Positions 13,905 through 29,790 of a stretch of 64,000 nucleotides of DNA are shown piece by piece. A program made the translations under genes and the position numbers. Source of the DNA: Minisyncoccota bacterium. GTDB lineage: Bacteria > Patescibacteriota > Minisyncoccia > Phycocordibacterales > DATDSR01. Position 1 is the stretch's first letter. Each line of letters begins with the position of its first letter. The stretch is from assembly GCA_036517655.1 (NCBI GenBank), contig DATDVE010000013.1, positions 28,364-92,363 of the forward strand, in the 5' to 3' direction. The notes beneath the pieces are model-generated. The model was not told the DNA's origin. It saw only the letters and a list, made by a program, of their open reading frames with translations, and did no database searches.

Positions 13905-13927
13905 ACCGCTCGCTTTATGTGTGAGAC

Positions 13928-14485: not shown

Positions 14486-14605
14486 GTACTGCTCGAGCTG
14501 GCGGCAGCCTTTAAGGCGCTGCAGATCGAATGCTGTGAGTTCCCTCGTGACGCACCTCCCTGTCCCACTTTTGCGGGACTCTTTCTTGGGTTAAGCTAGC
14601 ACAAA

Positions 14606-15079
14606 TTAGGCAGAAGGCAAGTTTGTTTTGTAGGCAAGTTTTACTTTCAGTTTTTCGTTCTCTTTGCCAAGAGAGTCAAGACGAGGAACGCCCGAGATTA
14701 GTTGAGCATGGATATGTTTGACTGTTGAACCGGTGTATTCCATGTCGCCGAAGCGCATGAAGACCGAACCTCCCGCAATTGCAAATTCTCTCTCCGCCCA
14801 CTGCATGAGACTGATTAGTTCTTCGCCCGCCTTACTTGGCAACTCGCTTAATTTCTCGTAATGAGATTTTGCAATAGCAAGCAAGTGTATGCGCGTGCCT
14901 TCGTATGGCCACTGATTCTTGGTTAGGATCCAATAGTCGCTTTCTTTGAGCACTGGCTCTTTGTGATACTTAGTTAAATTTTCTAAGCAGAAGGGACAAT
15001 GTCCTTCGGCTACGATCGTCTCCATCACCCGACGTTGTTCGTCGAGGCGGGAATTATCAAGATTTACGAAATAGCTCAT
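14606..15079 (-). CDS. HIT-superfamily (GalT/Ap4A-phosphorylase branch) protein
   Basis: CPFC zinc motif and KHIHAQL (HxHxQ) triad. Backbone GC. Confidence 0.6.
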   Translation of the reverse strand: MSYFVNLDNSRLDEQRRVMETIVAEGHCPFCLENLTKYHKEPVLKESDYWILTKNQWPYEGTRIHLLAIAKSHYEKLSELPSKAGEELISLMQWAEREFAIAGGSVFMRFGDMEYTGSTVKHIHAQLISGVPRLDSLGKENEKLKVKLAYKTNLPSA

Positions 15080-15095
15080 GATCTAGATTGTCATA

Positions 15096-16013: not shown

Positions 16014-16038
16014 GTCTAGTATTGTATAATGTCCGGGC

Positions 16039-16461
16039 ATGGAGATAAAGGTGCGCAAATTATCACCCGAGGCCAAATTGCCGGCTTATAGTCACGCGGG
16101 TGACGCGGGCCTAGATCTCTTTGCCCTAGAGAACACAGAACTTGAACCGGGCGTACGGGCGCAAGTCAAAACTGGCATTGCTCTGGAGATTCCTGATGGC
16201 CACGTGGGTCTAATCTGGGACAAGAGCGGCTTGGCCCAGAAATTTGGACTCAAGACGCTCGGCGGTGTAGTGGACGCTACGTATAGAGGCGAAGTGTTGG
16301 TGGGAATTGCTAATATCAGCAAAGAGCGATATGTGGTAGAAGCGGGGCACAAAGTTGCCCAGATGTTGATCCAGAAAGTTGAACAAGTGACTGTAGTAGA
16401 AGTGAAAGAATTAACGCAAACGAATAGAGGCCAAAGCGGCTTCGGCAGCACCGGCAAATGA
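16039..16461 (+). CDS. dut: dUTP diphosphatase
   Basis: GDAGLDL, GVVDATYRGEV and RGQSGFGSTG canonical dUTPase motifs. Confidence 0.9.
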   Translation: MEIKVRKLSPEAKLPAYSHAGDAGLDLFALENTELEPGVRAQVKTGIALEIPDGHVGLIWDKSGLAQKFGLKTLGGVVDATYRGEVLVGIANISKERYVVEAGHKVAQMLIQKVEQVTVVEVKELTQTNRGQSGFGSTGK

Positions 16462-18188
16462 CTTCGGAAATTATACACAAACAAATAGTCGAGGCGCTAA
16501 AGCGAGCTAACTTGCCCGAGAGCGATTTCGACGTTGAACTTGCGCGCGATTTTGCGCATGGCGATTATGCTAGCAACGTCGCCCTAATAGTAGGTAAGTC
16601 TACAGCGGTTGAACCGCTGGGAATAGCTGAAAAGTTACTGCCATATTTGGGTAATGATGGCGATGGATATATTGAGAAAGTTGAGATTGCCGGACCGGGC
16701 TTCCTGAACTTCTGGTTGTCAGAAAAGTATCATTCTAATGTTTTGCAAAAAGCTGCAATAGACCCCACTTCGCCAAGGCTTCGCGGGGCAAGGTGGGGCT
16801 GGAATGATAGTTTGCGCGGGAAGAAAGTGATGGTCGAGTACACGGATCCGAATGTTATGAAGCCATTTCATATTGGACACTTAATGTCTAACGCAATTGG
16901 CGAAAGTTTGTCGAGACTGTATGAAGCAAGCGGAGCCCAGGTGTCACGAACTAATTATTTTTCCGATGTTGGACTTGCTATCGCTAGAGCTGTTTGGGGC
17001 ATGAAAGAAATGAAGCAAACAATGCCCGCCGAGACGGTCGATGTGCGAGAGCGCACAGACTTTCTAGGTAAAGCTTATGCTTTTGGGGTGAAACAGGCAG
17101 AAGAAGACGAAAGCGTAATGAGCGAGGCGAAAGAAATAAATAGGCAGATTTACGTTAAGCAAGAAGGTGAATACCTTGAGCTTTACAACATTGGTAGACG
17201 TTGGTCTCTTGAGCATTTTGATTTGCTCTACAAGAAGTTGGGGAGCAATTTTGATCATTTGATTGCCGAGAGCGAAGTATCTAAACCGGGGCTCGAGATG
17301 AGTTGGCAAGCCCTCAAGCAAGGAATATTCACCGAGAGTGAGGGAGCAGTTGTTTTTCCCGAAGAGAAGTCCGGCCTGCACACTCGTGTGTTTGTGACCA
17401 AAGAGCAGTTGCCAACTTACGAGGCCAAAGAACTAGCACTCGTTGGGAAGAAACATGAACTCTTCCCGTTCGACTCATCTATTACTATCACAGCCAACGA
17501 GCAGAATGATTACTTCAAAGTTGTACTCAAAGCTGTAGATATTATCTTACCCGAGCTTGCGGGTAAAACTCGGCACGTCTCGCACGGCATGTTGCGTCTG
17601 CCTTCTGGCAAAATGAGCTCGCGCACGGGCAATGTTATTACTGGCGAGGCGCTCATAAATGATGTGGTTCTGAAAGCAAAAGAAAAGAATCCGGATGAGA
17701 AAATTGCCGAGGGTGTTGCAATCGGTGCGATTAAGTACTCTATACTCAAGCAGCAGCCGGGCAAAGATATTATTTTTGACTTCGAGAAGTCACTTTCGCT
17801 TGAGGGGGATAGTGGACCATATTTGCAATATGCTTATGCCCGAGCACGTTCGGTGCTAGAAAAATCCCAAAGTTCAAATCCCAAAGCTCAACCAAATCCC
17901 AATTTCCAAAATCTCAAACTCGGAGAACGGGAAAAGAAACTTGTGCGGGTGATTGCTAGATTTCCGGAGATTATCAAGAATGCGCAGGTACATCTTGCGC
18001 CGCAGAATATTTGCACTTACTTGATAGAGCTCGCTAGTGAGTTCAATAGCTTCTACGCAAGTAATCAGATAATTAATCCAGAAGATAAAGAGACTACGCA
18101 ACTGCGGCTAGTACTTACAGCGGCCGTTGCCCAGACGCTCTCGAACGGGTTATACACATTGGGTATCCCGGTGCTTGAGCATATGTAG
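16458..18188 (+). CDS. argS: Arginine--tRNA ligase
   Basis: Class I HIGH motif (PFHIGHLMSNAIGESL), ArgRS N-terminal domain, 576 aa. Confidence 0.9.
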   Translation: MTSEIIHKQIVEALKRANLPESDFDVELARDFAHGDYASNVALIVGKSTAVEPLGIAEKLLPYLGNDGDGYIEKVEIAGPGFLNFWLSEKYHSNVLQKAAIDPTSPRLRGARWGWNDSLRGKKVMVEYTDPNVMKPFHIGHLMSNAIGESLSRLYEASGAQVSRTNYFSDVGLAIARAVWGMKEMKQTMPAETVDVRERTDFLGKAYAFGVKQAEEDESVMSEAKEINRQIYVKQEGEYLELYNIGRRWSLEHFDLLYKKLGSNFDHLIAESEVSKPGLEMSWQALKQGIFTESEGAVVFPEEKSGLHTRVFVTKEQLPTYEAKELALVGKKHELFPFDSSITITANEQNDYFKVVLKAVDIILPELAGKTRHVSHGMLRLPSGKMSSRTGNVITGEALINDVVLKAKEKNPDEKIAEGVAIGAIKYSILKQQPGKDIIFDFEKSLSLEGDSGPYLQYAYARARSVLEKSQSSNPKAQPNPNFQNLKLGEREKKLVRVIARFPEIIKNAQVHLAPQNICTYLIELASEFNSFYASNQIINPEDKETTQLRLVLTAAVAQTLSNGLYTLGIPVLEHM

Positions 18189-18205
18189 TAGAATATGAGG
18201 GCAAA

Positions 18206-18751
18206 ATGCAGAGTTCAAAAATCAAAATTTCAGTTCAAAAATCAAAATTTTTAATTTTGCCTTTTACTTTTGCCCTTTGCCTTTTGAACTTTAACTTGGC
18301 ATTCGCGGCTCCTTGGTCTCTTGACCTTGTGAGTGCCGTGGATGGCACTGATCAGACCATAACTGTTACTCCGGGCGCGACAGTCAATCTGCGCGGTATT
18401 ATCTACGGTACACCGGGTGGGCAAACCTTCTTTACTTTTAGCTGTGGCAGTACTGTTGTGAAGAAGGGAGAGGTTATGGGGAAGCTTATCAATGACTTAG
18501 CTTGCACGTTGCCCGTAGCAGGCGTGCTTAACCCGAAACTTTCAGTCACGAGAGAGAGCGACGAGCAAACGCTGACAGAAGCTATTACGATCAATTTCAC
18601 CTACGGCAATCCTGGGTCGGATGCTGCGAAGGGTAATGAGGCAGATAATACAGAGAGGGGACGACTTGCCTGGTACGTTGTGGGTATCTTGTTGACAACC
18701 CTGGCTGGAATCATTTATTACACAAGGCAAAGCAGAGGAAGTCAATATTGA
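18206..18751 (+). CDS. Secreted protein with C-terminal TM anchor
   Basis: Signal peptide encoded partly by tandem TCAAAAATCAAAATTT repeats. C-terminal hydrophobic helix plus basic tail. Confidence 0.5.
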   Translation: MQSSKIKISVQKSKFLILPFTFALCLLNFNLAFAAPWSLDLVSAVDGTDQTITVTPGATVNLRGIIYGTPGGQTFFTFSCGSTVVKKGEVMGKLINDLACTLPVAGVLNPKLSVTRESDEQTLTEAITINFTYGNPGSDAAKGNEADNTERGRLAWYVVGILLTTLAGIIYYTRQSRGSQY

Positions 18752-18883
18752 CGCAAATTTGCTTTGAGGCATACTTGTAAGTAGCATCGGCGAGTTCCGT
18801 CAATAGTGGCGGACTTCGCAAGGTCTCATCTTTAACCTTCTTCCCGCGCGAGCAATCGTTGCGGCGGCCCGAAAGGAGCCAGC

Positions 18884-19303
18884 ATGCAAATCACGCGCAG
18901 CCGATTCTTGGCGGCCCTCTCGGCCGCCGCCCTCACCTTCGTCATCGCCTGCAGCAGCGGTGGTGGTCCGACCAGCAAGGAGCCGCCCGACCCGCACGGT
19001 GGCTTCGTGGTCACCTCCACGAGCTTCTGCTACTGCCCGATGCCCGACGGGGCCAACGTGGCCCATGCGAGCCTCGCGTGGGACAAGGCCGATCGCGTCG
19101 ATCCCGACGCGTTCGCCCGGATCATCGGGTTCTACGAGGTCGCGCGCTTCTCCTGCGCCGTCACCCAGACCAGCGGGGCGTGTGGGAGCGTGGTGAACAT
19201 CGGCGATGCCGTCGCGACCCAATACGAGCTCGAGCTCGTTTCGCAGGGGCTGCACCTGTCCACCGGCGGATTCCCGCCCGCGGTCTGTAGTACCTGCCCC
19301 TAG
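18884..19303 (+). CDS. Putative lipoprotein (GC-rich island V, about 67% GC)
   Basis: AAAGGAG SD. Signal peptide with lipobox LTFVIAC. Followed by GGGGGCGAGG...CCTCGCCCCC terminator. Confidence 0.5.
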   Translation: MQITRSRFLAALSAAALTFVIACSSGGGPTSKEPPDPHGGFVVTSTSFCYCPMPDGANVAHASLAWDKADRVDPDAFARIIGFYEVARFSCAVTQTSGACGSVVNIGDAVATQYELELVSQGLHLSTGGFPPAVCSTCP

Positions 19304-19326
19304 GGGCAGGCCGAAGGTTGAAGGTC

Positions 19327-19375
19327 GGGGGCGAGGTATGCACAGTTGTGCTCCTCGCCCCCTTCTCCGTTTGAT
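19327..19375 (+). terminator. Rho-independent-like terminator after lipoprotein gene
   Basis: 10-bp GC stem followed by a T-containing tract. A TATAAT for the next gene follows. Confidence 0.5.
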
Positions 19376-19398
19376 ACTGGCGTACTATAATTTAAGGT

Positions 19399-22095
19399 AT
19401 GCAAAAGGTGCTCTCATTGTCGAAGCTTTCTTTAATATTTACAATCCTGTTCCTTGGACTTGTTGTGACGAATAAAGCGTATGCCCAAAGTGCAGGGTCG
19501 CTCGAGATAATCCCAGAAAACCATGCACTAGTTGGCTTCGGCTACGGCTCAGACGACAAGAATTGTACTCTATATTGGAAGGAGGGCAGAATGTACGCAG
19601 ATGGCACAATAGGTGAGATAGATACCAATTGGCATGAGAAGGGTTGCTATTATGGCAATGCAAATCACTATGGAGATGACACGATCCCGAGTTCGGCTCG
19701 TCAAAAGCAAGCTCCAAGTAACGAGTATCTAACAGCATGGAGTTGGGATTCTGACACAGATGGAGGCAGGAAATTGGGTATTCCCCCAAACGAATATACG
19801 GATATAGATTATCCAGGTAACGAATGTTTCTATCAGATATACCAACAATTTGACCCTAACACTAAGGCATTTATAGGTTCACCTAAGGCTTTCGGCTCGC
19901 CGTATGATGGTAGTTGTAACGAACGCCAATATGAGTTTGCTTGGTTGCAGCGATTCGCTGTCGCAAACCCGGGCAAGGTACTTGTGGCTGTGGGTTTGAG
20001 TCTCGGTGGGGACGGCGACGTTAATTATGTTTCTATTGCTTCGCGCAAACCACCCCCAGCTGCACCTAGCTGTACAACGCCCGGACCGGGGACTAATCAG
20101 ATGATAGGCTGCAAGTTCTACGATGTTCCGTATACCGAGAAGCTCACATATATTGGTGGCAATGCTCCTGCGGGACCAAGTACAGGTAGCCCTGCGCCGA
20201 CGTCATTTACTGCCATTGATCAAATTTTTTCTGGAGGACTTTTAGACGGCTATAAAGATTTTTCTTTACGTTGGCAGGGAACATTCAATTTCTCAAGTGG
20301 CGATTACGATTTTATTCTCGAGAATCCGGATGATGGCGTTAGGTTATATATCGACGGGGCATTAGTCACAGACAAGTGGGTAGTGCAATGCTGCAACAAC
20401 TTTACTACCCGAAGGAGCGGGTTCAGTGGGTCTCATACGATCAAGCTTGAGTACTTCAATCAAGGCGGCCCCGCGCAGGTCAAATTGCGCTGGCAGAAAG
20501 TTGGAGATCCGCCTCCACCCCAACCTACACCCACGCTCACATTCACCGCTAGCCCGCCGAATATTACCTCTCCTGGGCAAGCCTTATTAGAGTGGTCAAG
20601 TTCGAATGTGACATCTTGCACAGCAAGTGCTTCGCCAGCGAATTCCCAATGGACTGGAAGCAAAGCAGTTGGACCTGATAAACAGCAGGATGTCACAAAT
20701 TTAACTCAAACCACAACTTTCTATCTCGAATGCGATGGACCTTATGGCAAAACTCCCAAACGCGAGCAAACTGTTACTGTGAGCCCACCGTCACCCGTAG
20801 AGCCTTACGGTTTCCACGATGGAGTTGAAGCCGACTGCTCGATCACTTGGGGATGGACATGCGATTCTGACGACTTTGCCACGCCACTTAATGTCCGCTT
20901 CTATACTCACGATAACAATGCCTGGCAATTCCGCGGCGAGATGACTGCGGATGGCAATCGGCCCGACGTGGCAAGTAGTTGTGGCGGTAACCCCAATCAC
21001 GGATTCATCTGGACTCTGCCAGAGAGCCTCAAGGACGGTTTTCAGCACGAACTCTCCGCATGGCCTTGCGGCATCCCTGACGACCCCAATATCCCGGGTT
21101 GCGATTATTCGGTGAATCCGCTACCAATACCCAAGATCATTACTTGTGGGGCGCCACCACCACCACCCGCTGTTGATATATCAGCCTCGCCTACTACTGT
21201 GCCCTATAACACAGCGAGCACACTTAGCTGGACGTCGCAAAGCGTAGTTTCCTGTTCCGCCTCCGCCGATCCTATTAACACAAACTGGACAGGCGATAAA
21301 CCGATCTCGAGTTCTGGCTACAGCACCGGCCCGCTCACCGAGACAACCGTGTTCACAATCACCTGTCTCGATGCGGGTAATCAGCCGTACACGGATCGAG
21401 TAACAGTGACTGTGGGACAGCCCGTGGCCAATATTAATCTTACCGCGTCGCCTCAAGCAATCACGCCTGGGGATACGTCGACGCTCAACTGGGATACCTC
21501 TAATATTATCTCCGGATCTTGTGTGGCAAGTGGCGGTTGGTCTGGGACCAAATCGGATTCGGGCAGTCAAGTTGTGGGTCCACTTAATGTGACAACGACT
21601 TTCACTCTCACTTGCAAGGATCTCAATAATCAAGATGTTGTGAAGTCTGTTACGGTGACAGTGGGTTCGGGCACATTGGGAGTGACGCTCTTCATAAATG
21701 CGGGTGGTGGTTGGCAGGAAGATACGCAAGCGGCGCTGCCCGCCAACAATGTTGACCTGCGAGGTGATGTATCTGGAACAGTGCTTGGCCCAATCACATA
21801 CAAATTCTGGTGCGATGCGTCGCAAACAAATCCCACCATCACCGAAACAAGCAATCTTGATCCAAAGGATTACATAGATCTCTGCGATTACACAACGCAG
21901 GGTATATATACAGCTAAAGTGACAATAACTCGGGCAGGCCTGGATGCTTCTGACACGGGTAGAATTACTGTGGCGAGAAGTTGCGCCTTGGGCGCGGCTC
22001 CGAATAATCGCCACTTCGCTCGTCTTGAGTTGGTTGAACCAAGTTTTGACTTACCCGGGCTTATTCAGAGCATTATTCTCGCCATCTCGCATTAA
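19399..22095 (+). CDS. Large secreted surface protein with PA14 domain and Ig-like repeats
   Basis: Signal peptide. PA14 signature FSLRWQGTFNFSSGDYDFILENPDDGVRLYIDGALV. Repeated SCTASASPANSQWTG-like Ig modules. Confidence 0.7.
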   Translation: MQKVLSLSKLSLIFTILFLGLVVTNKAYAQSAGSLEIIPENHALVGFGYGSDDKNCTLYWKEGRMYADGTIGEIDTNWHEKGCYYGNANHYGDDTIPSSARQKQAPSNEYLTAWSWDSDTDGGRKLGIPPNEYTDIDYPGNECFYQIYQQFDPNTKAFIGSPKAFGSPYDGSCNERQYEFAWLQRFAVANPGKVLVAVGLSLGGDGDVNYVSIASRKPPPAAPSCTTPGPGTNQMIGCKFYDVPYTEKLTYIGGNAPAGPSTGSPAPTSFTAIDQIFSGGLLDGYKDFSLRWQGTFNFSSGDYDFILENPDDGVRLYIDGALVTDKWVVQCCNNFTTRRSGFSGSHTIKLEYFNQGGPAQVKLRWQKVGDPPPPQPTPTLTFTASPPNITSPGQALLEWSSSNVTSCTASASPANSQWTGSKAVGPDKQQDVTNLTQTTTFYLECDGPYGKTPKREQTVTVSPPSPVEPYGFHDGVEADCSITWGWTCDSDDFATPLNVRFYTHDNNAWQFRGEMTADGNRPDVASSCGGNPNHGFIWTLPESLKDGFQHELSAWPCGIPDDPNIPGCDYSVNPLPIPKIITCGAPPPPPAVDISASPTTVPYNTASTLSWTSQSVVSCSASADPINTNWTGDKPISSSGYSTGPLTETTVFTITCLDAGNQPYTDRVTVTVGQPVANINLTASPQAITPGDTSTLNWDTSNIISGSCVASGGWSGTKSDSGSQVVGPLNVTTTFTLTCKDLNNQDVVKSVTVTVGSGTLGVTLFINAGGGWQEDTQAALPANNVDLRGDVSGTVLGPITYKFWCDASQTNPTITETSNLDPKDYIDLCDYTTQGIYTAKVTITRAGLDASDTGRITVARSCALGAAPNNRHFARLELVEPSFDLPGLIQSIILAISH

Positions 22096-22122
22096 GAGCC
22101 AGTCTAAGCTATATTTACACTT

Positions 22123-25100
22123 ATGACTGGCCCCACACCGGCTAATTTGCCAGAGAAGTCTGACGCTGCCAAGAGAGAAGAAGAAACTCTCAAGTTTTGG
22201 CAGGAAAACAAAATCTTCGAGAAGTCCCTCAAGTTAAGAGAGGGCAAAGAAGAGTTTGTCTTTTATGATGGCCCACCGTTTGCTACCGGCTTGCCCCACC
22301 ATGGCACATTACTTTCCTCTGTGGCTAAAGATGTTATTCCGCGATACAAAACAATGCGCGGGTTTTATGTACGCAGGCGCTGGGGCTGGGATACTCACGG
22401 TTTACCTATAGAGAATATGATCGAGAAGGATTTGGGGCTAAAGTCAAAAAAAGATATTTTGGCATTGGGGATTGAGCAGTTTAACGAAGCTTGCCGGGCT
22501 AAAGTTATGCAATACGCGCATGATTGGCAGAAATACGTTGATCGAGTTGGGCGCTGGGTTGAGTTTGAGAGCGCATACAAGACAATGGACGCAACGTACA
22601 CAGAGAGCGTGTGGTGGGCGCTCAAACAAATGCACGAGAAAGGCTTGCTATATGAGGGCAGGAAAGTGCTCATGTACTGTCCACATTGCGAGACGCCCCT
22701 GGCCAAAGCCGAGATTGCCATGGATAACTCATATAAAGATGTTACAGAAGAAGCCGTCACAGTGAAGTTTAGGTTGAAAATTGAAAATTGGAAATTGAAA
22801 ATTGCAGATACGCCCACGTATCTGCTGGCCTGGACTACCACGCCATGGACACTCCCTGCCAATGTGGCACTAGCTGTTGGGCCGGAGATCGAGTACTCGT
22901 TAGTAACTCACCCGGACTCCGTCTCGCCCTCTCTTATTAATAAGAGAGGGGTAGGGGTGAGTTATATTGTGGCTTCCGCATTAGTTGAGAAGCATTTTGG
23001 CAAAGATGCAAAAGTTGAGAAAACTTTTTTTGGCAAAGATTTAGAGGGGATAGAGTACGAGCCGCTCTTCCAGATTCCAGCTGTCCAGCAATCTGGTAAG
23101 CCAGCGTACTATGTTGCTCTGGCAGACTTTGTGAGTACAGAAGAAGGCACAGGCATTGTGCACACGGCTGTGATATATGGCGAGGACGACTACCAGCTAG
23201 GACTGAAAAATGATTTGCCCATGGTTCCCATATTAAATTCAAATGGCACTTACAATGATTTAGTGCCGGAGTTTTTGCAGGGGCAATACATCAAGAAAGC
23301 AGATAAGTTAGTGATAGAGGATCTCGAGAAGAGGGGTTTACTTTTCTCCAAAGCGCCAAACACGCATAGTTATCCGCATTGTTATCGTTGTGGCACGGCG
23401 CTCATATATAACGCGCTCTCCAGTTGGTTTGTCAACATTCAGAAGATCAAAGCGCGCATGATTGAGCTCAATGAGAAGATAAACTGGGTGCCAGAGCACC
23501 TGAAGCACGGCAGATTCTTGAACATTGTCGAGAACGCCCCCGATTGGACAATCTCGCGTAACAGATTCTGGGCAAGTCCATTGCCGATCTGGAAATGTAG
23601 TGAATGCGATTTAGTTAAAGTTGTGGGATCCCTCTCGGATTTGGAAGATAACCGCTCCACCAAACCGAATAAGTACATTTTGGTTCGTCATGGTCAGAGC
23701 GAAAAGAATAGTGGCAACGGAGAGCAGGGGGTCATCGCCACTACTCGCGAGGGTGATAGGTACCACTTAACAGAAGAAGGTCGAGAGCAGAGCAGGAAAA
23801 TTGCCTCTGAACTCAAATCACAAAACATTGACCTAATTGTGACCTCGCCTTATCTGCGCACTAAGGAGACGGCAGAGGCAATAGGAAGCCTTCTGGGCGT
23901 GAAGGTAGAAGAGGACGAAAGATTGAAGGAACTCCAGCTGGGTCAGACGCTCGAGGGCAAGACATGGGATGCTTTCAGAGAATTCGAGGGGAAGCGCGGT
24001 TTCGATGATCACTTAGGAGAGGGAGAGAGTTGTCGCGAGATGTTGGAACGTATGAGAGCCGTTGTTGTTGACCTAGATAAGAAGTACCAAGGGAAAAGCA
24101 TTGTTCTTGTGAGCCATGGTGATCCACTTTGGCTTCTGCGTTCTTATCTTATGAATCTCTCTCCTCAAGAAACACTCAAGCAGCATGATTCTCTGTATCC
24201 TAAGCGGGGGGAATTTTATGTTTTATCTCACAGCAATTACCCAAGGAACAAAAACATGGAGCTTGATTTTCACCGGCCCTACATTGATGCGATTAAGCTT
24301 GCTTGTTCATGTGGGGGCGAAATGGTGCGCATACCGGAGGTGGTTGATTGCTGGGTGGAATCTGGCTCGATGCCCTTCGCCGAGTATCATTACCCCACAG
24401 AAAACAAAAAAGAATTTGAAGGCCGATTTCCGGGAGACTACATAGCCGAGTACATTTCCCAGACCAGGACTTGGTTCTATTACATGCTCGCTGTTTCGAC
24501 AGCACTCTTTGATCGCGAGCCATTCAAGAATGTTGTAACAACTGGCAACTTACTTGCAGCGGATGGAGCCAAGATAAGTAAGTCTAAAGGCAACTATACG
24601 GACCCGCTTCTTCTGATTGATAAATATGGAGCAGATGCATATCGCTACTACGAAATGGTATCTGTTGTTATGCAGGGGGAAGATGCGCTCTTCAAAGACG
24701 ACGAGGTGAAAGAAGTGTATCAGCGCATGATAAACATTCTCTGGAATGTTGTTCAATTTTATACGACGTATAAAATTGAAGGGCAAAGTGCAAAGGTCAA
24801 AAATCAAAATTACACTTCAAAATTTGAAAATGTGCTGGATCGGTGGATACTCGCAAGATTGGCAGAACTCAATCGTGATGTGACAGAGAATCTAGATAAA
24901 TTTGATACAGTCAAAGCCGGTCGGCCAATCAGGGACTTTGTCACGGATCTATCAACCTGGTATATTCGCCGGTCGCGCGATCGCTTTAAATCAGATAATG
25001 CGCAAGATAGAGACAGTGCTATTGGGACGACTAGATTTGTGCTGCTGGAGCTCTCTAAACTAATAGCGCCGTTTATGCCATTCCTTGCCGAACAAGTATA

Positions 25101-25605
25101 CAAAGCCGTAGGTGGTGAACTCGAGTCAGTCCATCTGGAGAACTGGACTGAAATAAAGTCCGAGCCAGAGCATTCTGATGTTCTTGAGAACACCAGAATA
25201 ACGCGCGACATAGTGTCGCTAGCGCTCGAGGCACGCCAGAAGGAGGGGATCAAAGTGCGCCAGCCGCTTGCAAGTTTACAAACTAGCGCAAAGCTTGCTC
25301 CAGAATATCTGGAGTTGATAAAAGACGAGGTGAATGTCAAAGAAGTAAAGTTTGGCCCAGAGCTCCTTCTCGACACAAACATAACGCCTGAACTCGAACT
25401 CGAAGGCAAGATGCGCGATCTAGTAAGATCTGTGCAAGAGAAGCGCAAGGACTTGGGTCTCCAGCCCACTGATCAGGTCAATCTCACTCTCCCAACTTCA
25501 CTTGGGGATCTGATCCCTAAGTTTGAAAGCGAAATCAAAAAATCTGTGCATGCACAAAATGTGTCATTAGCAGACACACAAGAAATAAAGATAGAAAAAG
25601 TATGA
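22123..25605 (+). CDS. ileS: Isoleucine--tRNA ligase with in-frame MITE insertion and inserted histidine-phosphatase domain
   Basis: PFATGLPHHGT (HIGH), WTTTPWTLPAN, KISKSKGN (KMSKS). 1160 aa. MITE at 22904-22964. PGAM-like domain (LVRHGQSEKN, TSPYLRTKETAEAI, LVSHGDP) at about 23632-24255, between the CxxC and CxC zinc-finger halves. Confidence 0.9.
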   Translation: MTGPTPANLPEKSDAAKREEETLKFWQENKIFEKSLKLREGKEEFVFYDGPPFATGLPHHGTLLSSVAKDVIPRYKTMRGFYVRRRWGWDTHGLPIENMIEKDLGLKSKKDILALGIEQFNEACRAKVMQYAHDWQKYVDRVGRWVEFESAYKTMDATYTESVWWALKQMHEKGLLYEGRKVLMYCPHCETPLAKAEIAMDNSYKDVTEEAVTVKFRLKIENWKLKIADTPTYLLAWTTTPWTLPANVALAVGPEIEYSLVTHPDSVSPSLINKRGVGVSYIVASALVEKHFGKDAKVEKTFFGKDLEGIEYEPLFQIPAVQQSGKPAYYVALADFVSTEEGTGIVHTAVIYGEDDYQLGLKNDLPMVPILNSNGTYNDLVPEFLQGQYIKKADKLVIEDLEKRGLLFSKAPNTHSYPHCYRCGTALIYNALSSWFVNIQKIKARMIELNEKINWVPEHLKHGRFLNIVENAPDWTISRNRFWASPLPIWKCSECDLVKVVGSLSDLEDNRSTKPNKYILVRHGQSEKNSGNGEQGVIATTREGDRYHLTEEGREQSRKIASELKSQNIDLIVTSPYLRTKETAEAIGSLLGVKVEEDERLKELQLGQTLEGKTWDAFREFEGKRGFDDHLGEGESCREMLERMRAVVVDLDKKYQGKSIVLVSHGDPLWLLRSYLMNLSPQETLKQHDSLYPKRGEFYVLSHSNYPRNKNMELDFHRPYIDAIKLACSCGGEMVRIPEVVDCWVESGSMPFAEYHYPTENKKEFEGRFPGDYIAEYISQTRTWFYYMLAVSTALFDREPFKNVVTTGNLLAADGAKISKSKGNYTDPLLLIDKYGADAYRYYEMVSVVMQGEDALFKDDEVKEVYQRMINILWNVVQFYTTYKIEGQSAKVKNQNYTSKFENVLDRWILARLAELNRDVTENLDKFDTVKAGRPIRDFVTDLSTWYIRRSRDRFKSDNAQDRDSAIGTTRFVLLELSKLIAPFMPFLAEQVYKAVGGELESVHLENWTEIKSEPEHSDVLENTRITRDIVSLALEARQKEGIKVRQPLASLQTSAKLAPEYLELIKDEVNVKEVKFGPELLLDTNITPELELEGKMRDLVRSVQEKRKDLGLQPTDQVNLTLPTSLGDLIPKFESEIKKSVHAQNVSLADTQEIKIEKV
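22904..22964. mobile_element. MITE-like palindromic element copy 2, in frame within ileS
   Basis: TAACTCACCC...GGGGTGAGTTA with internal CCCTCTCTTATTAATAAGAGAGGG. Translated as VTHPDSVSPSLINKRGVGVSY inside IleRS. Confidence 0.8.
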
Positions 25606-26198
25606 GGCGGGTAATTATTGTGCATTGTTGGGAAGGGACTCCTGATTTTTGTTGGTATTCTTATGCCAAGCGCGAACTGGAGAAATTGGGTTTCGAAGTT
25701 AATGTTCCGGCTATGCCGGACACCAGTACTCCCCGATTTATTCCATGGCTCACTAAACTGCAGGAGGAGATTGGGTCAGCAAGTGAGGAGCTGTATCTTA
25801 TTGGTCATAGTTTGGGCGGACCAACTATAATGAAGTATTTGGGAACTCTCGCAGAAGGTACAAAAGTGGGTGGGGTTGTGTTTGTTGCCGTACCCACAGA
25901 TACACTAGATGAAGTTGCTGCAATTCAAGACAAATCCGTTTTGCCAGAATTCTTTGGTGACGGGATAAATTGGAATAAAGTTAAAGAAAGCTCAAAGGCA
26001 TTTATCGGCATTTATTCTGACGACGATCCATATATAGACTCAAGACACGCGGAAGTGATTAAAGAAAAACTTGGAGCAGAAATTATCACAAAACATGGTT
26101 TGGGGCACATGTCTGAACCAGACGGTGAGGGTGACATAATGGTAGTCAAAGAACTGCCCGACGTTGTCGAAGCAATTAAAAAGCTAGCGCATGTCTGA
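25602..26198 (+). CDS. Alpha/beta hydrolase (YdeN/RBBP9-like serine hydrolase)
   Basis: GHSLGG nucleophile elbow, about 200 aa, 4-nt overlap with the ileS stop. Confidence 0.7.
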   Translation: MRRVIIVHCWEGTPDFCWYSYAKRELEKLGFEVNVPAMPDTSTPRFIPWLTKLQEEIGSASEELYLIGHSLGGPTIMKYLGTLAEGTKVGGVVFVAVPTDTLDEVAAIQDKSVLPEFFGDGINWNKVKESSKAFIGIYSDDDPYIDSRHAEVIKEKLGAEIITKHGLGHMSEPDGEGDIMVVKELPDVVEAIKKLAHV

Positions 26199-26658
26199 AC
26201 GTATTTACACAACTAGGGCTTTAGTTTTGAGTGAGCGAGCTAGTGGGGAGGCTAGTAAAGTTTTTACACTTTTTACTCGGGAGTTGGGTTTGGTCTATGC
26301 TTATGCGCGATCTGTTAGAGAAGTACGTTCTAAGTTGCGCTACAACTTGCCGCTCTACTCGCATACTCTTGTTTCGCTTGTGCCAGGCAGGGAATACTGG
26401 CGATTGGTGGGAGCGGAGAATTCTGAAAGGGGGATATCAGCCGAACTTTGCAGGTTTATTTGTCGTTTCATGGGCGAGCACGAGCCTCACGTTGATATTT
26501 TTGACATGCTTACTGTCGGGGTAACTGGACAAGACGGAAACGAGAGAGAACTTAAACTTAACATATTAGATAAGCTTGGTTATGTGGGCGTACGGGCAGA
26601 ATCGGACAAGCATAGGGAGCAACTGATAGAGCAGGGTATATACGCCAGCCATTTATAA
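26191..26658 (+). CDS. recO: Short RecO-like protein (N-terminal OB-fold)
   Basis: ALVLSERASGEASKVFTLFTRELGLVYAYARS resembles the RecO N-terminal domain. Only 155 aa. Confidence 0.4.
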   Translation: MSERIYTTRALVLSERASGEASKVFTLFTRELGLVYAYARSVREVRSKLRYNLPLYSHTLVSLVPGREYWRLVGAENSERGISAELCRFICRFMGEHEPHVDIFDMLTVGVTGQDGNERELKLNILDKLGYVGVRAESDKHREQLIEQGIYASHL

Positions 26659-26677
26659 GTTCGTGTTATAATAAGTC

Positions 26678-28585
26678 ATGGCTGAACATGACAAGGGTCT
26701 AGTCGAAGACCTTAAGCAGAAATTATACAAAAGGGGCACATTCAAGGCTGATATCAGCCGAGCGCAGCAATCTTTGCCACGAACTGAAGTGGCTCCAGAC
26801 TGGGATAAAGAAGAAGAACCAGTGACCAGAGGTTTGCTAAACCCATCTTTCCTCAAGAAATTCTTTTTAGTTGCATTGCTTTTCTTCGTTCTCGCTGTTG
26901 CTGCTTCAGCTTTCATAATTTGGAGCGGTTCGAATGTTGTCTCGGCAGATAATCTCGAGATTACGCTCAAGGGTCCGACTTCGCTTAAGGGTGGCGACGA
27001 GCTTGGTCTTTCCGTTGCGGTTGCGAATAACAATGCTACTTCCTTAGAATTTGTTGACCTTATCGTTACATTCCCGCCTGGCACGCGCGAGGCGGATAAC
27101 CTGGAGAAGGAGTTGGTCCGTTACCGAAAGAACTTGGGCACTCTTAACAAGGGAGACGTTGCGAACGAATCTGTTAAGGCAGTTTTATTCGGTGAGGCCG
27201 GTAAGGAGCAGGAAGTTAAGGTCACGGTAGAGTATAGGACCACCGGTTCTAATGCTATCTTCGAGAAGAATAAAACCTACACAGTTCTTATCTCTTCATC
27301 GCCGCTTGATTTGTCACTCTCTTTGCCAGATGAAGTGAATGCTGGTAATCAAGTGCAACTTGTAATTGATGTTGCTTCGCGTGCGACAAGCGAACTCTCC
27401 GATATATTGGTAAACGCGAGCTATCCTTCCGGGTTTAGATTCAAGGATGCAAGTCCTAAGCCAATTTTTGGCAATAATGTTTGGCGGATTGGTGATATGC
27501 AAGGAGATATCAGGAGACGTATAACTATTACTGGGGTCCTTGACGGTGAGGATAATGAGAAGAAACTTTTCAAGGTTGTTGCCGGCCGAGCCAAGGAGAC
27601 TAGCGACAATGAGGTCGGAGTTCCGTATGGATCCACTTTCGCAACTGTCGTGATGCGTCGATCATTCGTTGATCTTGCTGCAAGCTTCTCTGGCCAAGCT
27701 GCATCAGAAATTATCTCTGCGCCCAGTCAGACTTTGCGCGGTAGCATAGCGTGGACTAATAATCTGGGTGACAAGCTTATAAATGGTACCGTAAGCGTGC
27801 GTCTATCTGGGAACGCTCTAGATCAAAGTAGTGTATCAGTTGGATCTGGTTCATACCGGTCTCTCGACAATACGATAACTTGGAAAGAGCAACACGACCA
27901 GTCGCTCGCACTCATCGAGCCTGGCAGTTCTGGGCAGATCAGTTTCGATATCTCTACGCTCTCAAGTGACAAATTGGGGGCTTCGGGTATACGTAACCCT
28001 TTTATCCAGGCTGACGTAACCTTCGAGGCGACTCGCGTAACCGAGGATGGTTCCGGAGATATTGTTCGGACTTCTGTTTCGAGACTGATCCGTCTCAATT
28101 CTGCTCTTGATCTTGGAGCGAAGGCGGTGTACACGGTTGGTCCATTCGCAAACTCTGGGCCGATGCCGCCCAAGGTGAACGTCGAGACCACTTATACTCT
28201 CGTTTGGTCTGTTCTGAGCGCTTCCAATGACCTTAACGGAGTAACGGTAAGGGGACTCCTGCCTTCGCATACTCGTTTTTTGGGCAATGTATCACCTTCA
28301 GGTGCTGACCTACGTTTCGAAGCCACGACTGGTATTGTTTCTTGGAATGTGGGGAGACTAGAGGCGTCTCCGTCGAGTGTTTCCCCTCGCGAGGTTGCTT
28401 TCCAAATTGCTCTCTTGCCCAGCTTGCCCCAGGCGGATCAGACCTTGCCACTTATGACGAATATGAATGCGAGCGGCCGGGATCTATTTACGGGAGAGAC
28501 GATTTCTGATAGCGTGCCACTTATTGACACGCGCATATCCGAAGACCCTAATTTCCAAGAATCATGGAGCAAAATAGCAAATTAG
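26678..28585 (+). CDS. Membrane-anchored large hypothetical protein with extracytoplasmic beta-rich repeats
   Basis: Cytoplasmic N-terminus, one TM helix (FFLVALLFFVLAVAASAFIIW), then about 550 aa of repeated beta-strand-rich sequence. Confidence 0.55.
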   Translation: MAEHDKGLVEDLKQKLYKRGTFKADISRAQQSLPRTEVAPDWDKEEEPVTRGLLNPSFLKKFFLVALLFFVLAVAASAFIIWSGSNVVSADNLEITLKGPTSLKGGDELGLSVAVANNNATSLEFVDLIVTFPPGTREADNLEKELVRYRKNLGTLNKGDVANESVKAVLFGEAGKEQEVKVTVEYRTTGSNAIFEKNKTYTVLISSSPLDLSLSLPDEVNAGNQVQLVIDVASRATSELSDILVNASYPSGFRFKDASPKPIFGNNVWRIGDMQGDIRRRITITGVLDGEDNEKKLFKVVAGRAKETSDNEVGVPYGSTFATVVMRRSFVDLAASFSGQAASEIISAPSQTLRGSIAWTNNLGDKLINGTVSVRLSGNALDQSSVSVGSGSYRSLDNTITWKEQHDQSLALIEPGSSGQISFDISTLSSDKLGASGIRNPFIQADVTFEATRVTEDGSGDIVRTSVSRLIRLNSALDLGAKAVYTVGPFANSGPMPPKVNVETTYTLVWSVLSASNDLNGVTVRGLLPSHTRFLGNVSPSGADLRFEATTGIVSWNVGRLEASPSSVSPREVAFQIALLPSLPQADQTLPLMTNMNASGRDLFTGETISDSVPLIDTRISEDPNFQESWSKIAN

Positions 28586-29790
28586 AAAAAATAGTCAGTC
28601 TCTGCAAAAGAAGGGGCTTCGTCTTCCCAGACTCGGAAATTTACGGCGGGCTTTCTGGTTTCTACTCTTACGGTCACCTAGGTAACGAGCTTTTACACAA
28701 CATTAAGAATCTTTGGTGGCAGAAGTTTGTTTACGGCAGAGAAGATGTATTTGGAGTACGAACACCCATCGTCATGAATCCCAAGGTTTGGGAAGCGGCT
28801 GGACACGTACAAAATTTTACTGATCCACTTGAGGGTGGCAAGTTTAATACTATGTTCAAGACAGAAGTAGGTGCGCGCAAAGATGAGACCACCACGGCAT
28901 ACCTACGACCAGAGACAGCTCAAGGCATGTTTGCCAACTTTAAAACCCTGCTCGATACAACCAGAGGCAGTTTGCCCATGGGGGTGGCCCAAATCGGAAA
29001 GGCTTTTAGGAACGAGATATCGCCCAGAGACTTTATTTTCAGACTGCGCGAATTTGAGCAGATGGAAATTGAATACTTTATCAAGCCAAATGATTGGCAG
29101 AGTATATTTGAGCAGTGGCGCGTGGCCATGCACGAATTCTTCACTTTACTTGGTTTGCCTAAGGTGCATGAGCTTGAAGTTCCAGATGGTGATAGAGCTC
29201 ACTACTCGAAGCGCACAATTGATTTCGAGTTCGAGTATTCTATCGGCAGACGCGAGATTGCTGGCCTTGCGTATCGTACAGATTTTGATCTCTCATCGCA
29301 CGCCAAGTATTCTGGCGCTGACTTGAGCTTCTATGACGAAGAGACGAAAGAACGATTTATTCCCCATGTTATTGAACCATCGTTCGGCGTTGAGAGGATA
29401 TTACTTGCAATACTCGATTGTGCCTATACAGAAGATGAGTTAGGTGGCGAGAAAAGGATTTACTTAAAACTTGCGCCCAAGATCGCTCCCATTAAAGTTG
29501 CTGTGTTCCCCCTGCTCAAGAATAAGCCAGAGCTAGTTGCTAAAGCCCGCGAAATTTATAAAAACCTAAAAACCTATAACCTATCACCTATAACCTGCAT
29601 CTTTGACGACAATGGCAATATCGGCAAACGATATCGCCGGCAAGACGAGATCGGCACGCCTTTCTGCGTCACTGTAGATTTCCAAACCCTGGACGATCAA
29701 ACCATAACAGTCAGGCATCGCGACAGCGGTATACAGGATCGTCTCGCTTCGGCCGAACTCCCCGCTTTTATTCTCGAGAAAATAAAATGA
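28564..29790 (+). CDS. glyS: Glycine--tRNA ligase (alpha2 type)
   Basis: RRGFVFPDSEIYGG N-terminus and FRNEISPR class II motifs. Confidence 0.9.
   Translation: MEQNSKLEKIVSLCKRRGFVFPDSEIYGGLSGFYSYGHLGNELLHNIKNLWWQKFVYGREDVFGVRTPIVMNPKVWEAAGHVQNFTDPLEGGKFNTMFKTEVGARKDETTTAYLRPETAQGMFANFKTLLDTTRGSLPMGVAQIGKAFRNEISPRDFIFRLREFEQMEIEYFIKPNDWQSIFEQWRVAMHEFFTLLGLPKVHELEVPDGDRAHYSKRTIDFEFEYSIGRREIAGLAYRTDFDLSSHAKYSGADLSFYDEETKERFIPHVIEPSFGVERILLAILDCAYTEDELGGEKRIYLKLAPKIAPIKVAVFPLLKNKPELVAKAREIYKNLKTYNLSPITCIFDDNGNIGKRYRRQDEIGTPFCVTVDFQTLDDQTITVRHRDSGIQDRLASAELPAFILEKIK

What the first reader, a model, noticed from the sequence alone, without database searches (positions are those of the whole stretch)
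23632..24255. Histidine-phosphatase (phosphoglycerate-mutase-like) domain inserted between the zinc-finger halves of IleRS
The normally ~20-40-aa spacer between the IWKCSEC and ACSCGGEMVR Cys pairs is ~215 aa here. This segment carries the hallmark motifs of the histidine phosphatase superfamily: LVRHGQSEKN (catalytic RHG), TSPYLRTKETAEAI, and LVSHGDPLW (second His). An enzymatic domain fused inside an aminoacyl-tRNA synthetase is unusual.
Basis: partly seen in the sequence, partly recalled or inferred. Interest (0 to 1): 0.6.

Follow-up and report, generated by a model that had tools for sequence, protein, structure and literature searches.

The report
Active phosphatase nested inside IleRS
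A complete and apparently active histidine-phosphatase enzyme is built into a surface loop of the isoleucyl-tRNA synthetase of this candidate-phyla-radiation (CPR) bacterium; this two-enzymes-in-one design is conserved in well over a hundred related species, and I found no paper that describes it.

Summary
Window 22123-25605 (+) is one uninterrupted 1160-aa type-2 IleRS. Its CP3 zinc-knuckle hairpin (C492/C495 ... C728/C730) carries a 198-aa branch-1 histidine-phosphatase domain (PF00300, E=2e-33; aa 516-713, nt 23668-24261). It is not an artefact: the identical protein occurs on 7 contigs, and at least 125 GTDB Patescibacteria species show the same architecture. The phosphatase catalytic residues (R522, H523, N529, R579, E603, H665) are 97-100% conserved, although the insert evolves faster than the IleRS core. 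Fold and sequence place it among small PhoE/PspA/CobC-type phosphomonoesterases, not canonical phosphoglycerate mutases.

New findings:
- In insert-less relatives, the closest free-standing homologues lie in the argS-ileS gap. Insert-bearing genomes have argS directly abutting ileS.
- Other CPR IleRS carry the domain at two further loops and in 2-4 copies, all catalytically intact.
- Some relatives combine it with GNAT, Ser-hydrolase, DUF559 or P-loop-kinase domains. One carries a HAD phosphatase instead.

Best reading: a bifunctional enzyme formed by capture of the neighbouring phosphatase gene, with both activities under selection. The substrate is unknown. Rivals are tRNA end-healing, a cryptic PGM, and a protein phosphatase. 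No publication describing it was found.

The parts
22123..25605 (+). Bifunctional gene: type-2 isoleucyl-tRNA synthetase (1160 aa) with a nested histidine phosphatase
   Evidence: Single ORF. TIGR00392 ileS 835.9 bits, cutoff 621.4. Pfam tRNA-synt_1 + His_Phos_1 + Anticodon_1 + DUF5915. AF2 pLDDT 88.2, pTM 0.83. Foldseek TMt 0.80-0.90 to IleRS 8C8V, 8WND, 1ILE.
23668..24261 (+). Inserted histidine-phosphatase module (aa 516-713), including its return linker to CP3
   Evidence: Gap relative to 1ILE. PF00300 at aa 519-684. Domain model pLDDT 91.9. Foldseek probability 1.00 to GpgP, HFP, PspA, PhoE. Median insert length 198 aa in 111 homologues.
23596..23607 (+). CP3 zinc-knuckle first half, C492-S-E-C495
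   Evidence: Aligns with Tth C461/C464. Translation checked. Not conserved in the family.
24304..24312 (+). CP3 zinc-knuckle second half, C728-S-C730
   Evidence: Aligns with Tth C502/C504. Translation checked.
23686..23694 (+). Phosphatase R522-H523-G524 (H523 = predicted phospho-accepting nucleophile)
   Evidence: R and H are invariant in 111 of 111, G in 109 of 111. Translation checked.
23857..23859 (+). Phosphatase R579 (second phosphate-pocket Arg)
   Evidence: 111 of 111.
23929..23931 (+). Phosphatase E603 (predicted general acid, equivalent to PhoE E83 / dPGM E89)
   Evidence: 109 E + 2 D of 111. The equivalence rests on the motif alignment 'RLKELQLG' vs PhoE 'LREIHLG' and on my own knowledge of the family.
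24115..24117 (+). Phosphatase H665 (second catalytic His)
   Evidence: 111 of 111.
22297..22308 (+). IleRS HIGH signature, here H-H-G-T
24571..24585 (+). IleRS KMSKS signature, here K-I-S-K-S
   Evidence: K817, K820 and S821 are invariant.
16458..18188 (+). argS (ArgRS), the conserved upstream synteny partner
   Evidence: Pfam Arg_tRNA_synt_N + tRNA-synt_1d + DALR_1. argS lies upstream of ileS in 57 of 80 insert-bearing loci.
25602..26198 (+). Ser_hydrolase (YdeN/RBBP9-like) gene overlapping the ileS stop codon (ATGA)
   Evidence: PF06821, E=7e-19. PDB 1UXO and 2QS9. Overlap seen. The same family is nested inside IleRS in P0393.
26191..26658 (+). recO (N-terminal domain), the conserved downstream synteny partner
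   Evidence: PF11967. recO follows ileS in 56 of 68 loci with enough downstream sequence.

Best explanation
The gene encodes one polypeptide with two working enzymes. The body is a normal type-2 IleRS with synthetic site, CP1 editing domain, anticodon-binding domain and C-terminal domains. A self-contained, roughly 198-aa branch-1 histidine phosphatase of the small PhoE/PspA/CobC type grows out of the tip of the CP3 hairpin. It enters and leaves through adjacent strands, so the IleRS fold is undisturbed.

The phosphatase should work as its relatives do. Substrate phosphate is bound by R522, R579, N529 and H665, transferred to H523 with E603 as the acid, and then hydrolysed.

The module came from the neighbouring gene. 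In insert-less relatives its closest homologue is a free-standing gene in the argS-ileS gap. In insert-bearing genomes that gap is empty and the domain is inside ileS. The direction of the move is unresolved; tandem duplication plus two deletions is a plausible route (inferred).

My best guess at function is a small-molecule phosphomonoesterase. It would be linked to IleRS through obligatory 1:1 co-expression and tethering, and through protection from gene loss, rather than through substrate channelling. The insertion geometry is not conserved across lineages, which argues against channelling. The substrate is unknown.

Shown: identity, integrity, conservation, distribution and synteny. Inferred: catalytic competence, origin by neighbour capture, and small-molecule substrate.
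For: Identity and integrity.

Not an artefact: the identical protein is on 7 contigs. At least 125 GTDB species genomes have it; 68 of the 80 loci fetched hold complete ORFs of 1088-1291 codons (stop to stop), and RHG lies 186-200 aa before D[LF]HRPYID in all 80. All of the best 120 full-length homologues carry PF00300.

Selection on catalysis: R522, H523, R579, R643 and H665 are 111 of 111; N529 is 108; E603 is 109. This holds although the insert has 41% mean pairwise identity against 65% for the core.

Neighbour origin: five of the six closest free-standing homologues were looked up (P0022, P0033, P0029, P0024, P0019). Each lies next to argS, to a class I synthetase gene, or between the two, and full-length insert-less IleRS of 954-990 aa follow in three of them. 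More distant homologues are not linked to ileS. Insert-bearing loci have argS abutting ileS (57 of 80) and recO after it (56 of 68). Inserted and ileS-adjacent free forms make one clade.

Autonomy and permissive geometry: there are three different insertion sites (CP3 hairpin; after ESGSMPYA; before the anticodon-binding domain) and 1-4 copies, all catalytically intact.

Small-molecule type: the nearest solved relatives are GpgP, the riboflavin-pathway HFP, PspA, PhoE and CobC. The modules are mostly acidic, median pI 5.85.
Against: No substrate can be assigned. No NCBIfam equivalog cutoff is reached by any member.

Repeated independent nesting in IleRS, and only IleRS among the top 150 relatives, suggests a more specific functional tie to IleRS than mere co-expression. 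So does a non-homologous HAD phosphatase in the same slot in P0403.

In relatives the phosphatase is accompanied by a P-loop kinase whose best solved match is the RNA-repair enzyme Pnkp1 and by GNAT domains. These hint at a tRNA-directed or inhibitor-directed role.

The model coordinates could not be read, so the orientation of the phosphatase pocket relative to the tRNA path is untested.
Confidence: 0.6

Rival explanations
1. tRNA-directed end-healing. The phosphatase removes a 3'-phosphate or 2',3'-cyclic phosphate (or 2'-phosphate) from damaged tRNA while the tRNA is held by IleRS. This would couple repair to recharging, in the manner of polynucleotide kinase-phosphatases.
For: The domain is fused to a tRNA-binding enzyme and, when free, is encoded between two tRNA synthetase genes. 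In related CPR IleRS a P-loop kinase sits in the adjacent slot (P0404), and its best solved match is the kinase domain of the RNA-repair enzyme Pnkp1, 4XRP, E=1.5e-5. A HAD phosphatase, the superfamily that includes the T4 PNKP phosphatase, replaces His_Phos_1 in P0403. DUF559 nuclease-like and GNAT domains also occur; ItaT-type GNATs act on Ile-tRNAIle (PMC7367177).
Against: I know of no RNA-end phosphatase in the histidine-phosphatase superfamily (own knowledge). The nearest relatives are all small-molecule enzymes. The modules are mostly acidic. The window protein has no kinase. Up to four tandem copies and three different sites argue against a precisely positioned RNA-end site. The Pnkp1 match is weak at 28 bits. 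CP3 is not reported to contact tRNA.
Confidence: 0.17
2. Cryptic glycolytic enzyme. The domain is a divergent cofactor-dependent phosphoglycerate mutase that supplies the PGM step reported missing in some Parcubacteria.
For: NF038349 dPGM_arch is the best or near-best NCBIfam match for inserted and free forms, at 78-113 bits. Jaffe et al. [quoted passage not shown] Their dPGM model TIGR01258 used a 67.1-bit threshold. These domains score only about 24-46 bits where that model matches at all, so the screen would have missed them.
Against: All scores are far below the equivalog cutoffs (225 and 81.7). CobC-type and acid-phosphatase models score almost as well. The dPGM substrate motif E-R-H-Y-G reads E603-L-Q-L-G here, which is PhoE-like ('EIHLG...EGKT'), and no K100/R116/R117 equivalents are evident (sequence; dPGM residues from my own knowledge). 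The insert is very widespread in Parcubacteria, whereas PGM is missing only from a few shallow clades. Tandem 2-4 copies are odd for a mutase.
Confidence: 0.1
3. Phosphoprotein phosphatase acting on IleRS itself or on a partner. One example is reversal of inhibitory phosphorylation of the KMSKS loop by Hip-type kinase toxins; another is a regulatory switch.
For: The superfamily includes protein phosphatases such as SixA, PGAM5 and Sts-1 (own knowledge). SixA is a consistent weak hit at 26-38 bits. All three insertion sites flank the KMSKS region in sequence. KMSKS Ser/Lys residues are invariant. HipA and HipT are known to phosphorylate the KMSKS-loop Ser of GltX and TrpS (own knowledge, not checked here).
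Against: No kinase that targets IleRS is known. There is no evidence of such a kinase in the window. Multiple tandem copies are unnecessary for a reaction in cis. The SixA score is below its cutoff of 74.5.
Confidence: 0.06
4. Built-in resistance module. The phosphatase, like the GNAT, kinase and hydrolase modules in relatives, inactivates an IleRS-directed inhibitor at its target.
For: GNATs detoxify aaRS-directed Trojan-horse warheads (microcin C, tiarins; bioRxiv 10.64898/2025.12.02.691738). Acetyltransferase, kinase and esterase are the classic antibiotic-modifying activities, and all occur in the IleRS slots of relatives. GxHH signature variants occur in 19 of the 80 insert-bearing loci. 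To my knowledge that variant has been linked to mupirocin hyper-resistance (own knowledge; cf. PDB 8C8W).
Against: No known IleRS inhibitor carries a phosphomonoester (own knowledge). The window protein carries only the phosphatase.
Confidence: 0.05
5. Artefact or dead passenger: a frameshift, a chimeric assembly, or a catalytically inert spacer.
For: One related long-read contig (L001) shows the gene broken into four calls.
Against: The window ORF is continuous. The identical protein is on 7 contigs. Dozens of independent assemblies hold complete ORFs with the insert. The catalytic residues are invariant. The AF2 models are confident.
Confidence: 0.01

Closest known systems
Small branch-1 histidine phosphatases: PhoE (1EBB/1H2E), PspA phosphoserine phosphatase (4IJ5), GpgP Rv2419c (4PZ9), riboflavin-pathway HFP (9MMH), CobC (6E4B)
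   Same: Same fold (Foldseek probability 1.00, TM about 0.70-0.75). Same size, about 200 aa. Same catalytic set R-H-G...N...R...E...H. Same PhoE-like 'E-x-x-x-G-x-x-E-G-K-T' segment.
   Different: Only 19-27% identical. It is not free-standing but nested in another enzyme, with a conserved return linker (F703, P707, then ELD-HRPYID). Substrate unknown. No equivalog cutoff is met.
Type-2 IleRS (T. thermophilus 1ILE; P. megaterium IleRS2 8C8V; yeast 8WND)
   Same: Full domain set, with TMt 0.80-0.90. CP-core zinc cysteines are invariant. The CP3 zinc knuckle is of the T. thermophilus type. KMSKS is present.
   Different: CP3 hairpin expanded by 198 aa. HIGH reads HHGT. The CP3 cysteines are often lost in the family.
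NCBIfam NF040702 'ileS_w_GNAT' (IleRS containing an N-acetyltransferase domain)
   Same: The same idea: a foreign catalytic domain inside a CPR-type IleRS. GNAT occupies site B in Gracilibacteria- and Peregrinibacteria-type IleRS, which also carry His_Phos_1.
   Different: The window protein has no GNAT and scores 334 bits against a cutoff of 1999. Its insert is at a different site (CP3) and belongs to a different enzyme class.
Bifunctional RNase H / acid phosphatase (Rv2228c / SCO2299 type; NF005567)
   Same: A His_Phos_1 (CobC-like) domain fused to a nucleic-acid enzyme. It is the second-best NCBIfam match for this subfamily at 73-101 bits.
   Different: That is an end-to-end fusion, not a nested insertion. 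The partner enzyme is different. The match is below the cutoff of 326.
Domain insertions in class I aaRS: the CP1 editing domain, and the CAAD membrane anchor of cyanobacterial ValRS/LeuRS/IleRS (PMC4893482)
   Same: Class I synthetase loops accept whole inserted domains without loss of aminoacylation.
   Different: Those inserts serve the synthetase itself (editing, localisation). Here the insert is an unrelated catalytic enzyme with its own active site.
Polynucleotide kinase-phosphatases (T4 Pnkp; bacterial Pnkp1, 4XRP)
   Same: In relatives such as P0404, the IleRS carries a phosphatase plus a P-loop kinase whose best solved match is Pnkp1.
   Different: The window has no kinase. PNKP phosphatases are HAD-type or metallophosphoesterases, not histidine phosphatases.

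Membership tests
Histidine phosphatase superfamily, branch 1 (PF00300) | Profile match above the curated threshold | tested here: met
   116.2 bits in the whole protein and 121.1 bits for the segment alone, against a cutoff of 21.7.
Histidine phosphatase superfamily, branch 1 (PF00300) | RHG motif with nucleophilic His, plus second Arg, second His and an acidic proton donor | tested here: met
   R522, H523, R579 and H665 in 111 of 111; E603 in 109 of 111; N529 in 108 of 111. 155 of 167 domains are intact in the wider set.
Histidine phosphatase superfamily, branch 1 (PF00300) | Alpha/beta/alpha sandwich fold shared with PhoE and dPGM | tested here: met
   AF2 domain model pLDDT 91.9. Foldseek probability 1.00, TM 0.70-0.75 to 6S2Q, 9MMH, 4PZ9, 4IJ6, 1H2E.
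Histidine phosphatase superfamily, branch 1 (PF00300) | Phosphatase activity through a phospho-histidine intermediate | not testable with these tools
   Needs an enzyme assay.
Cofactor-dependent phosphoglycerate mutase (TIGR01258 / NF038349) | Score at or above the equivalog or subfamily cutoff | tested here: not met
   TIGR01258: 23.7 bits against 81.7. NF038349: 96.7 bits against 225. No family member reaches a cutoff.
Cofactor-dependent phosphoglycerate mutase (TIGR01258 / NF038349) | dPGM substrate-binding residues (E-R-H-Y-G segment, K100, R116/R117 in E. coli GpmA numbering) | tested here: not met
   The segment reads E603-L-Q-L-G-Q-T-L-E-G-K-T, which is PhoE-like. The dPGM residue list comes from my own knowledge.
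Isoleucyl-tRNA synthetase (TIGR00392) | Equivalog score above cutoff | tested here: met
   835.9 bits against 621.4.
Isoleucyl-tRNA synthetase (TIGR00392) | Class I signatures HIGH and KMSKS | tested here: met
   KISKS at 817-821, with K817, K820 and S821 invariant. HIGH is present as the variant HHGT, with the fourth His replaced.
Isoleucyl-tRNA synthetase (TIGR00392) | CP1 editing domain and type-2 C-terminal domains | tested here: met
   The editing domain aligns with 1WK8 and 1UE0. WTTTPWT and GTGIVH are present. Anticodon_1 + DUF5915. Fold match to IleRS2 8C8V.
IleRS with GNAT domain (NF040702) | GNAT domain present and score above cutoff | tested here: not met
   334.5 bits against 1999. 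No GNAT Pfam hit in the window protein.
SixA phosphohistidine phosphatase (TIGR00249) | Equivalog score above cutoff | tested here: not met
   37.6 bits against 74.5, and only the N-terminal half matches.
PNKP-type RNA end-healing enzyme | Polynucleotide 5'-kinase domain together with a 3'-phosphatase | tested here: not met
   There is no P-loop kinase in the window protein. One is present only in relatives such as P0404.

The most novel reading that the evidence does not exclude
CPR IleRS is a modular scaffold with three defined surface slots: the CP3 hairpin, the loop after ESGSMPYA, and the loop before the anticodon-binding domain. It has repeatedly recruited accessory enzymes: histidine or HAD phosphatase, P-loop (Pnkp1-like) kinase, GNAT, Ser-hydrolase and DUF559 nuclease. 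In this reading those enzymes act on what IleRS binds, either damaged or mis-modified tRNAIle (end-healing, deacylation or acetylation) or IleRS-directed inhibitors. The window's phosphatase would then be the core component of a built-in tRNA-repair or target-protection system, not an unrelated metabolic passenger.
Probability: 0.2. Interest if true: 0.85.

Novelty: new variant of a known kind. Interest (0 to 1): 0.62.

Why it matters
Aminoacyl-tRNA synthetases are known to acquire editing, tRNA-binding or localisation domains. A second, unrelated catalytic enzyme nested inside the catalytic core is much rarer. Rarer still is one conserved across a large bacterial radiation, duplicated up to four times, inserted at three different loops, and interchangeable with a gene in the adjacent intergenic position.

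- It gives a natural map of permissive insertion sites in a class I synthetase.
- It is a clear example of the same phosphatase family alternating between a neighbouring-gene position and a nested position.
- It provides a concrete handle on CPR biology. If the phosphatase acts on tRNA or inhibitors, it defines a new kind of synthetase-embedded repair or defence. If it is metabolic, it flags activities that genome-scale metabolic reconstructions of Parcubacteria miss because they are hidden inside 'IleRS' annotations. The same holds for the free-standing argS-ileS gene.

The sequences are already public but labelled only 'class I tRNA ligase family protein'. I found no paper that describes them.

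Tried and rejected
- **Frameshift or assembly join:** rejected.
- **Relic of a free-standing phosphatase gene in the window's argS-ileS interval:** the 181-aa ORF at 18206-18751 is an unrelated membrane or secreted protein (hhalign probability 0.3%).
- **Link between the insert and the unusual HIGH motif:** rejected. Insert-bearing IleRS carry HYGH, GxHH, HxGS and other variants, and insert-less hosts carry HYGH or GLHH.
- **Ser_hydrolase as a conserved operon partner:** it lies downstream of ileS in only 4 of 68 loci.
- **Linkage of more distant free-standing homologues to ileS:** absent.
- **Per-genome PGM presence/absence from Jaffe et al. 2020:** not in the held supplements.
- **Literature:** seven searches plus targeted reads found no description of a phosphatase-containing IleRS. 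That includes a 2026 preprint that built a database of 96,219 IleRS sequences with annotated domain architectures.
- **Organism names for the multi-copy variants:** none in the cluster tables.
- **Rfam and tRNA scans of the window:** empty.
Full report
**1. Observation**

The region lies inside one continuous ORF, window 22123-25605 (+), 1160 aa.
- Pfam finds tRNA-synt_1 in two stretches, His_Phos_1 (PF00300, aa 519-684, E=2e-33), Anticodon_1 and DUF5915.
- NCBIfam names the protein ileS (TIGR00392, 835.9 bits, cutoff 621.4).
- Against T. thermophilus IleRS (1ILE), residues 16-515 align with Tth 11-483 and residues 714-1043 with Tth 488-821. So 198 residues (516-713; nt 23668-24261) stand where Tth has four.
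- The flanking cysteines C492/C495 and C728/C730 align with Tth C461/C464 and C502/C504. That element is the zinc motif of the CP3 subdomain (PMC7191050).
- GC content is flat across the borders, and there are no repeats at the borders.

**2. Not an artefact; distribution**

- The identical protein (P0069) is on 7 contigs up to 157 kb. NCBI labels it 'class I tRNA ligase family protein [Candidatus Paceibacterota bacterium]'. All of the best 120 full-length homologues (52-69% identity) carry PF00300.
The 80 loci kept come from records labelled Yanofsky-, Zambryski-, Taylor-, Nomura-, Adler-, Wildermuth-, Colwell- and Nealsonbacteria and other Patescibacteria records.
- 68 of the 80 loci hold complete ORFs of 1088-1291 codons (stop to stop), and the rest run off contig ends. 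In all 80, RHG lies 186-200 aa before D[LF]HRPYID, which means the same site.

**3. Is the phosphatase alive?**

- In 111 aligned full-length proteins, R522, H523, R579, R643 and H665 are invariant. G524 is 109, N529 is 108, E603 is 109 (plus 2 Asp) and E635 is 103. Meanwhile mean pairwise identity is 41% in the insert against 65% in the IleRS core. That is purifying selection on catalysis.
- The CP3 cysteines are all present in only 38 of 111, whereas the CP-core zinc cysteines are invariant.
- AF2 models are confident: full length pLDDT 88.2 and pTM 0.83; the domain alone 91.9 and 0.89.
- The body matches type-2 IleRS structures with TMt 0.80-0.90.
- The insert matches small histidine phosphatases with probability 1.00 at 19-27% identity: GpgP, a riboflavin-pathway HFP, PspA, PhoE, E. 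histolytica PSP and CobC. The sequence search agrees.
- No NCBIfam equivalog cutoff is met. dPGM_arch, RNase H/acid phosphatase and CobC models all score 70-113 bits.
- The dPGM-specific E-R-H-Y-G segment reads E-L-Q-L-G with a PhoE-like EGKT (the dPGM residues are from my own knowledge).
- Conclusion: an active PhoE-type phosphomonoesterase with unknown substrate.

**4. Origin**

- Six free-standing proteins of 188-204 aa are the closest free relatives of the insert (33-42% identity). Five were looked up. All five lie next to argS, to a class I synthetase gene, or between the two.
  - P0022 ends 3 bp before a 976-aa ileS.
  - P0029 ends 8 bp before a 954-aa ileS.
  - P0033 lies after argS, with ileS 3 kb downstream.
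  - P0024 precedes a class I synthetase gene, on a contig too short to show what lies upstream.
  - P0019 directly follows argS.
- The L082 IleRS has the ordinary short CP3 hairpin.
- More distant homologues (about 31% identity) and an archaeal one are not near ileS.
- Conversely, in insert-bearing loci argS ends just before ileS (57 of 80) and recO follows (56 of 68). The window keeps this order: argS 16458-18188, ileS, recO_N 26191-26658. Extra genes sit between argS and ileS, and a Ser_hydrolase gene sits between ileS and recO.
- Inserted and ileS-adjacent free domains form one clade apart from other His_Phos_1 proteins. The NJ tree is star-like and the polarity is unresolved.
- The host IleRS cores of insert-less genomes are 50-62% identical to some insert-bearing ones.
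- Inference: the same gene alternates between 'upstream neighbour' and 'nested' positions. Tandem duplication of phosphatase-ileS followed by two deletions would do it.

**5. A wider pattern**

- An exhaustive phmmer of the insert against 1.84 billion cluster representatives gave 718 hits at E<=1e-10. Of the top 150, about 89 are IleRS-embedded, 49 are free-standing and the rest are fragments or didomain proteins.
- Some IleRS carry tandem copies in CP3 (P0251, P0249, P0204; four copies in P0211).
- Others carry one copy directly after ESGSMPYA (site B, with a normal four-Cys CP3) and another between 'F.STYA' and 'LDRWIL' (site C). Examples are P0278 and P0262. P0209 and P0292 combine sites A and C.
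- Every complete copy keeps the catalytic set. P0278 comes from six assemblies.
- Its relatives, where named, are labelled Gracilibacteria, Peregrinibacteria or Peribacteria. They show site C usually filled by His_Phos_1. Site B is filled by His_Phos_1, GNAT, DUF559, Ser_hydrolase, a P-loop kinase, or, in P0403, two tandem HAD phosphatases with intact DxD motifs and no His_Phos_1.
- The kinase's best solved match is the RNA-repair enzyme Pnkp1 (E=1.5e-5, weak).
- NCBIfam already has an 'ileS_w_GNAT' exception model.

**6. Mechanism and rivals**

- *Shown:* a bifunctional polypeptide, with both parts under selection and with a neighbour-gene relationship.
- *Inferred as most likely (0.6):* an autonomous small-molecule phosphomonoesterase tethered to IleRS. 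The variable site and copy number, the acidic surface (median pI 5.85) and the small-molecule relatives argue against a precisely positioned macromolecular site.
- *Against that:* recurrence in IleRS only, the HAD analogue, and the kinase and GNAT companions keep a tRNA-directed end-healing role alive (0.17).
- *Cryptic PGM (0.10):* motivated by Jaffe et al. 2020, who report PGM missing in some shallow Parcubacteria clades. Their TIGR01258 threshold of 67.1 bits would miss these domains, which score about 24-46 bits where that model matches at all. However, the mutase residues are absent, and the insert is far more widespread than the PGM gap.
- *Protein phosphatase (0.06), inhibitor inactivation (0.05), artefact or inert spacer (0.01):* less likely.

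**7. Novelty**

The sequences and their automatic Pfam labels are public. One JGI product name even reads 'isoleucyl-tRNA synthetase/phosphohistidine phosphatase SixA/...GNAT'. Seven literature searches and targeted reads found no description. One of the papers read is a 2026 preprint that built a database of 96,219 IleRS sequences with annotated domain architectures; its main text mentions neither a phosphatase nor Patescibacteria. I rate this a new variant of a known kind (a synthetase with accreted domains), with a real chance of something more interesting.

Noticed in passing
window 18800-19300: A 65% GC islet in a genome of about 46% GC. It holds a 139-aa lipoprotein-like ORF (18884-19303, signal peptide with lipobox 'VIAC') followed by GC-rich hairpins. 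It lies between argS and ileS next to an 898-aa PA14-domain protein (19399-22095). It looks like foreign DNA, or possibly a chimeric stretch.
   Followed up: partly
window 22297-22308; loci L002-L081: The IleRS HIGH signature is H-H-G-T here and H-x-G-S in 89 of its 111 closest homologues, so the fourth His is lost. Across the 80 species loci the motif varies: HYGH 28, GxHH 19 (plus one AIHH) and others. To my knowledge the GxHH form has been linked to mupirocin hyper-resistance in IleRS2 (own knowledge). There is no correlation with the insert.
   Followed up: partly
window 25602-26198: A YdeN/RBBP9-type Ser_hydrolase gene starts inside the ileS stop codon (ATGA overlap). The same family is nested inside IleRS at site B in P0393. 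It is downstream of ileS in only 4 of 68 related loci.
   Followed up: yes
proteins P0343-P0427; P0403, P0404, P0393, P0355, P0354: Gracilibacteria-, Peregrinibacteria- and Peribacteria-type IleRS of 1200-1860 aa carry further nested domains in addition to His_Phos_1: GNAT, DUF559, Ser_hydrolase, AAA_33 / Zeta-toxin-like kinases, an IS200-like Y1 transposase domain (P0425), or tandem HAD phosphatases in place of His_Phos_1 (P0403). P0403 also repeats an 'NPHPNPLPEGEG' linker three times.
   Followed up: partly
window 16458-32269: A synthetase-rich stretch: ArgRS (16458-18188), IleRS, a class II synthetase with an HGTP anticodon domain (28564-29790) and MetRS (30848-32269).
   Followed up: no
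L001 4470-8047: In a long-read metagenome contig the orthologous IleRS-phosphatase gene is split into four adjacent gene calls. This is probably indel errors rather than a real split gene.
   Followed up: no
window 42325-45807 and 51635-55363: Two very large ORFs (1160 and 1242 aa) with almost no recognisable domains. The first has only a weak PG_binding_1 hit and the second has none.
   Followed up: no
window 11831-16076: A thymidylate-cycle cluster: DHFR (domain only in the C-terminal half of a 345-aa ORF), dCMP deaminase (domain in the C-terminal half of a 276-aa ORF) and thymidylate synthase. The long N-terminal regions may be real extensions, or they may be artefacts of the ORF-start rule.
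   Followed up: no
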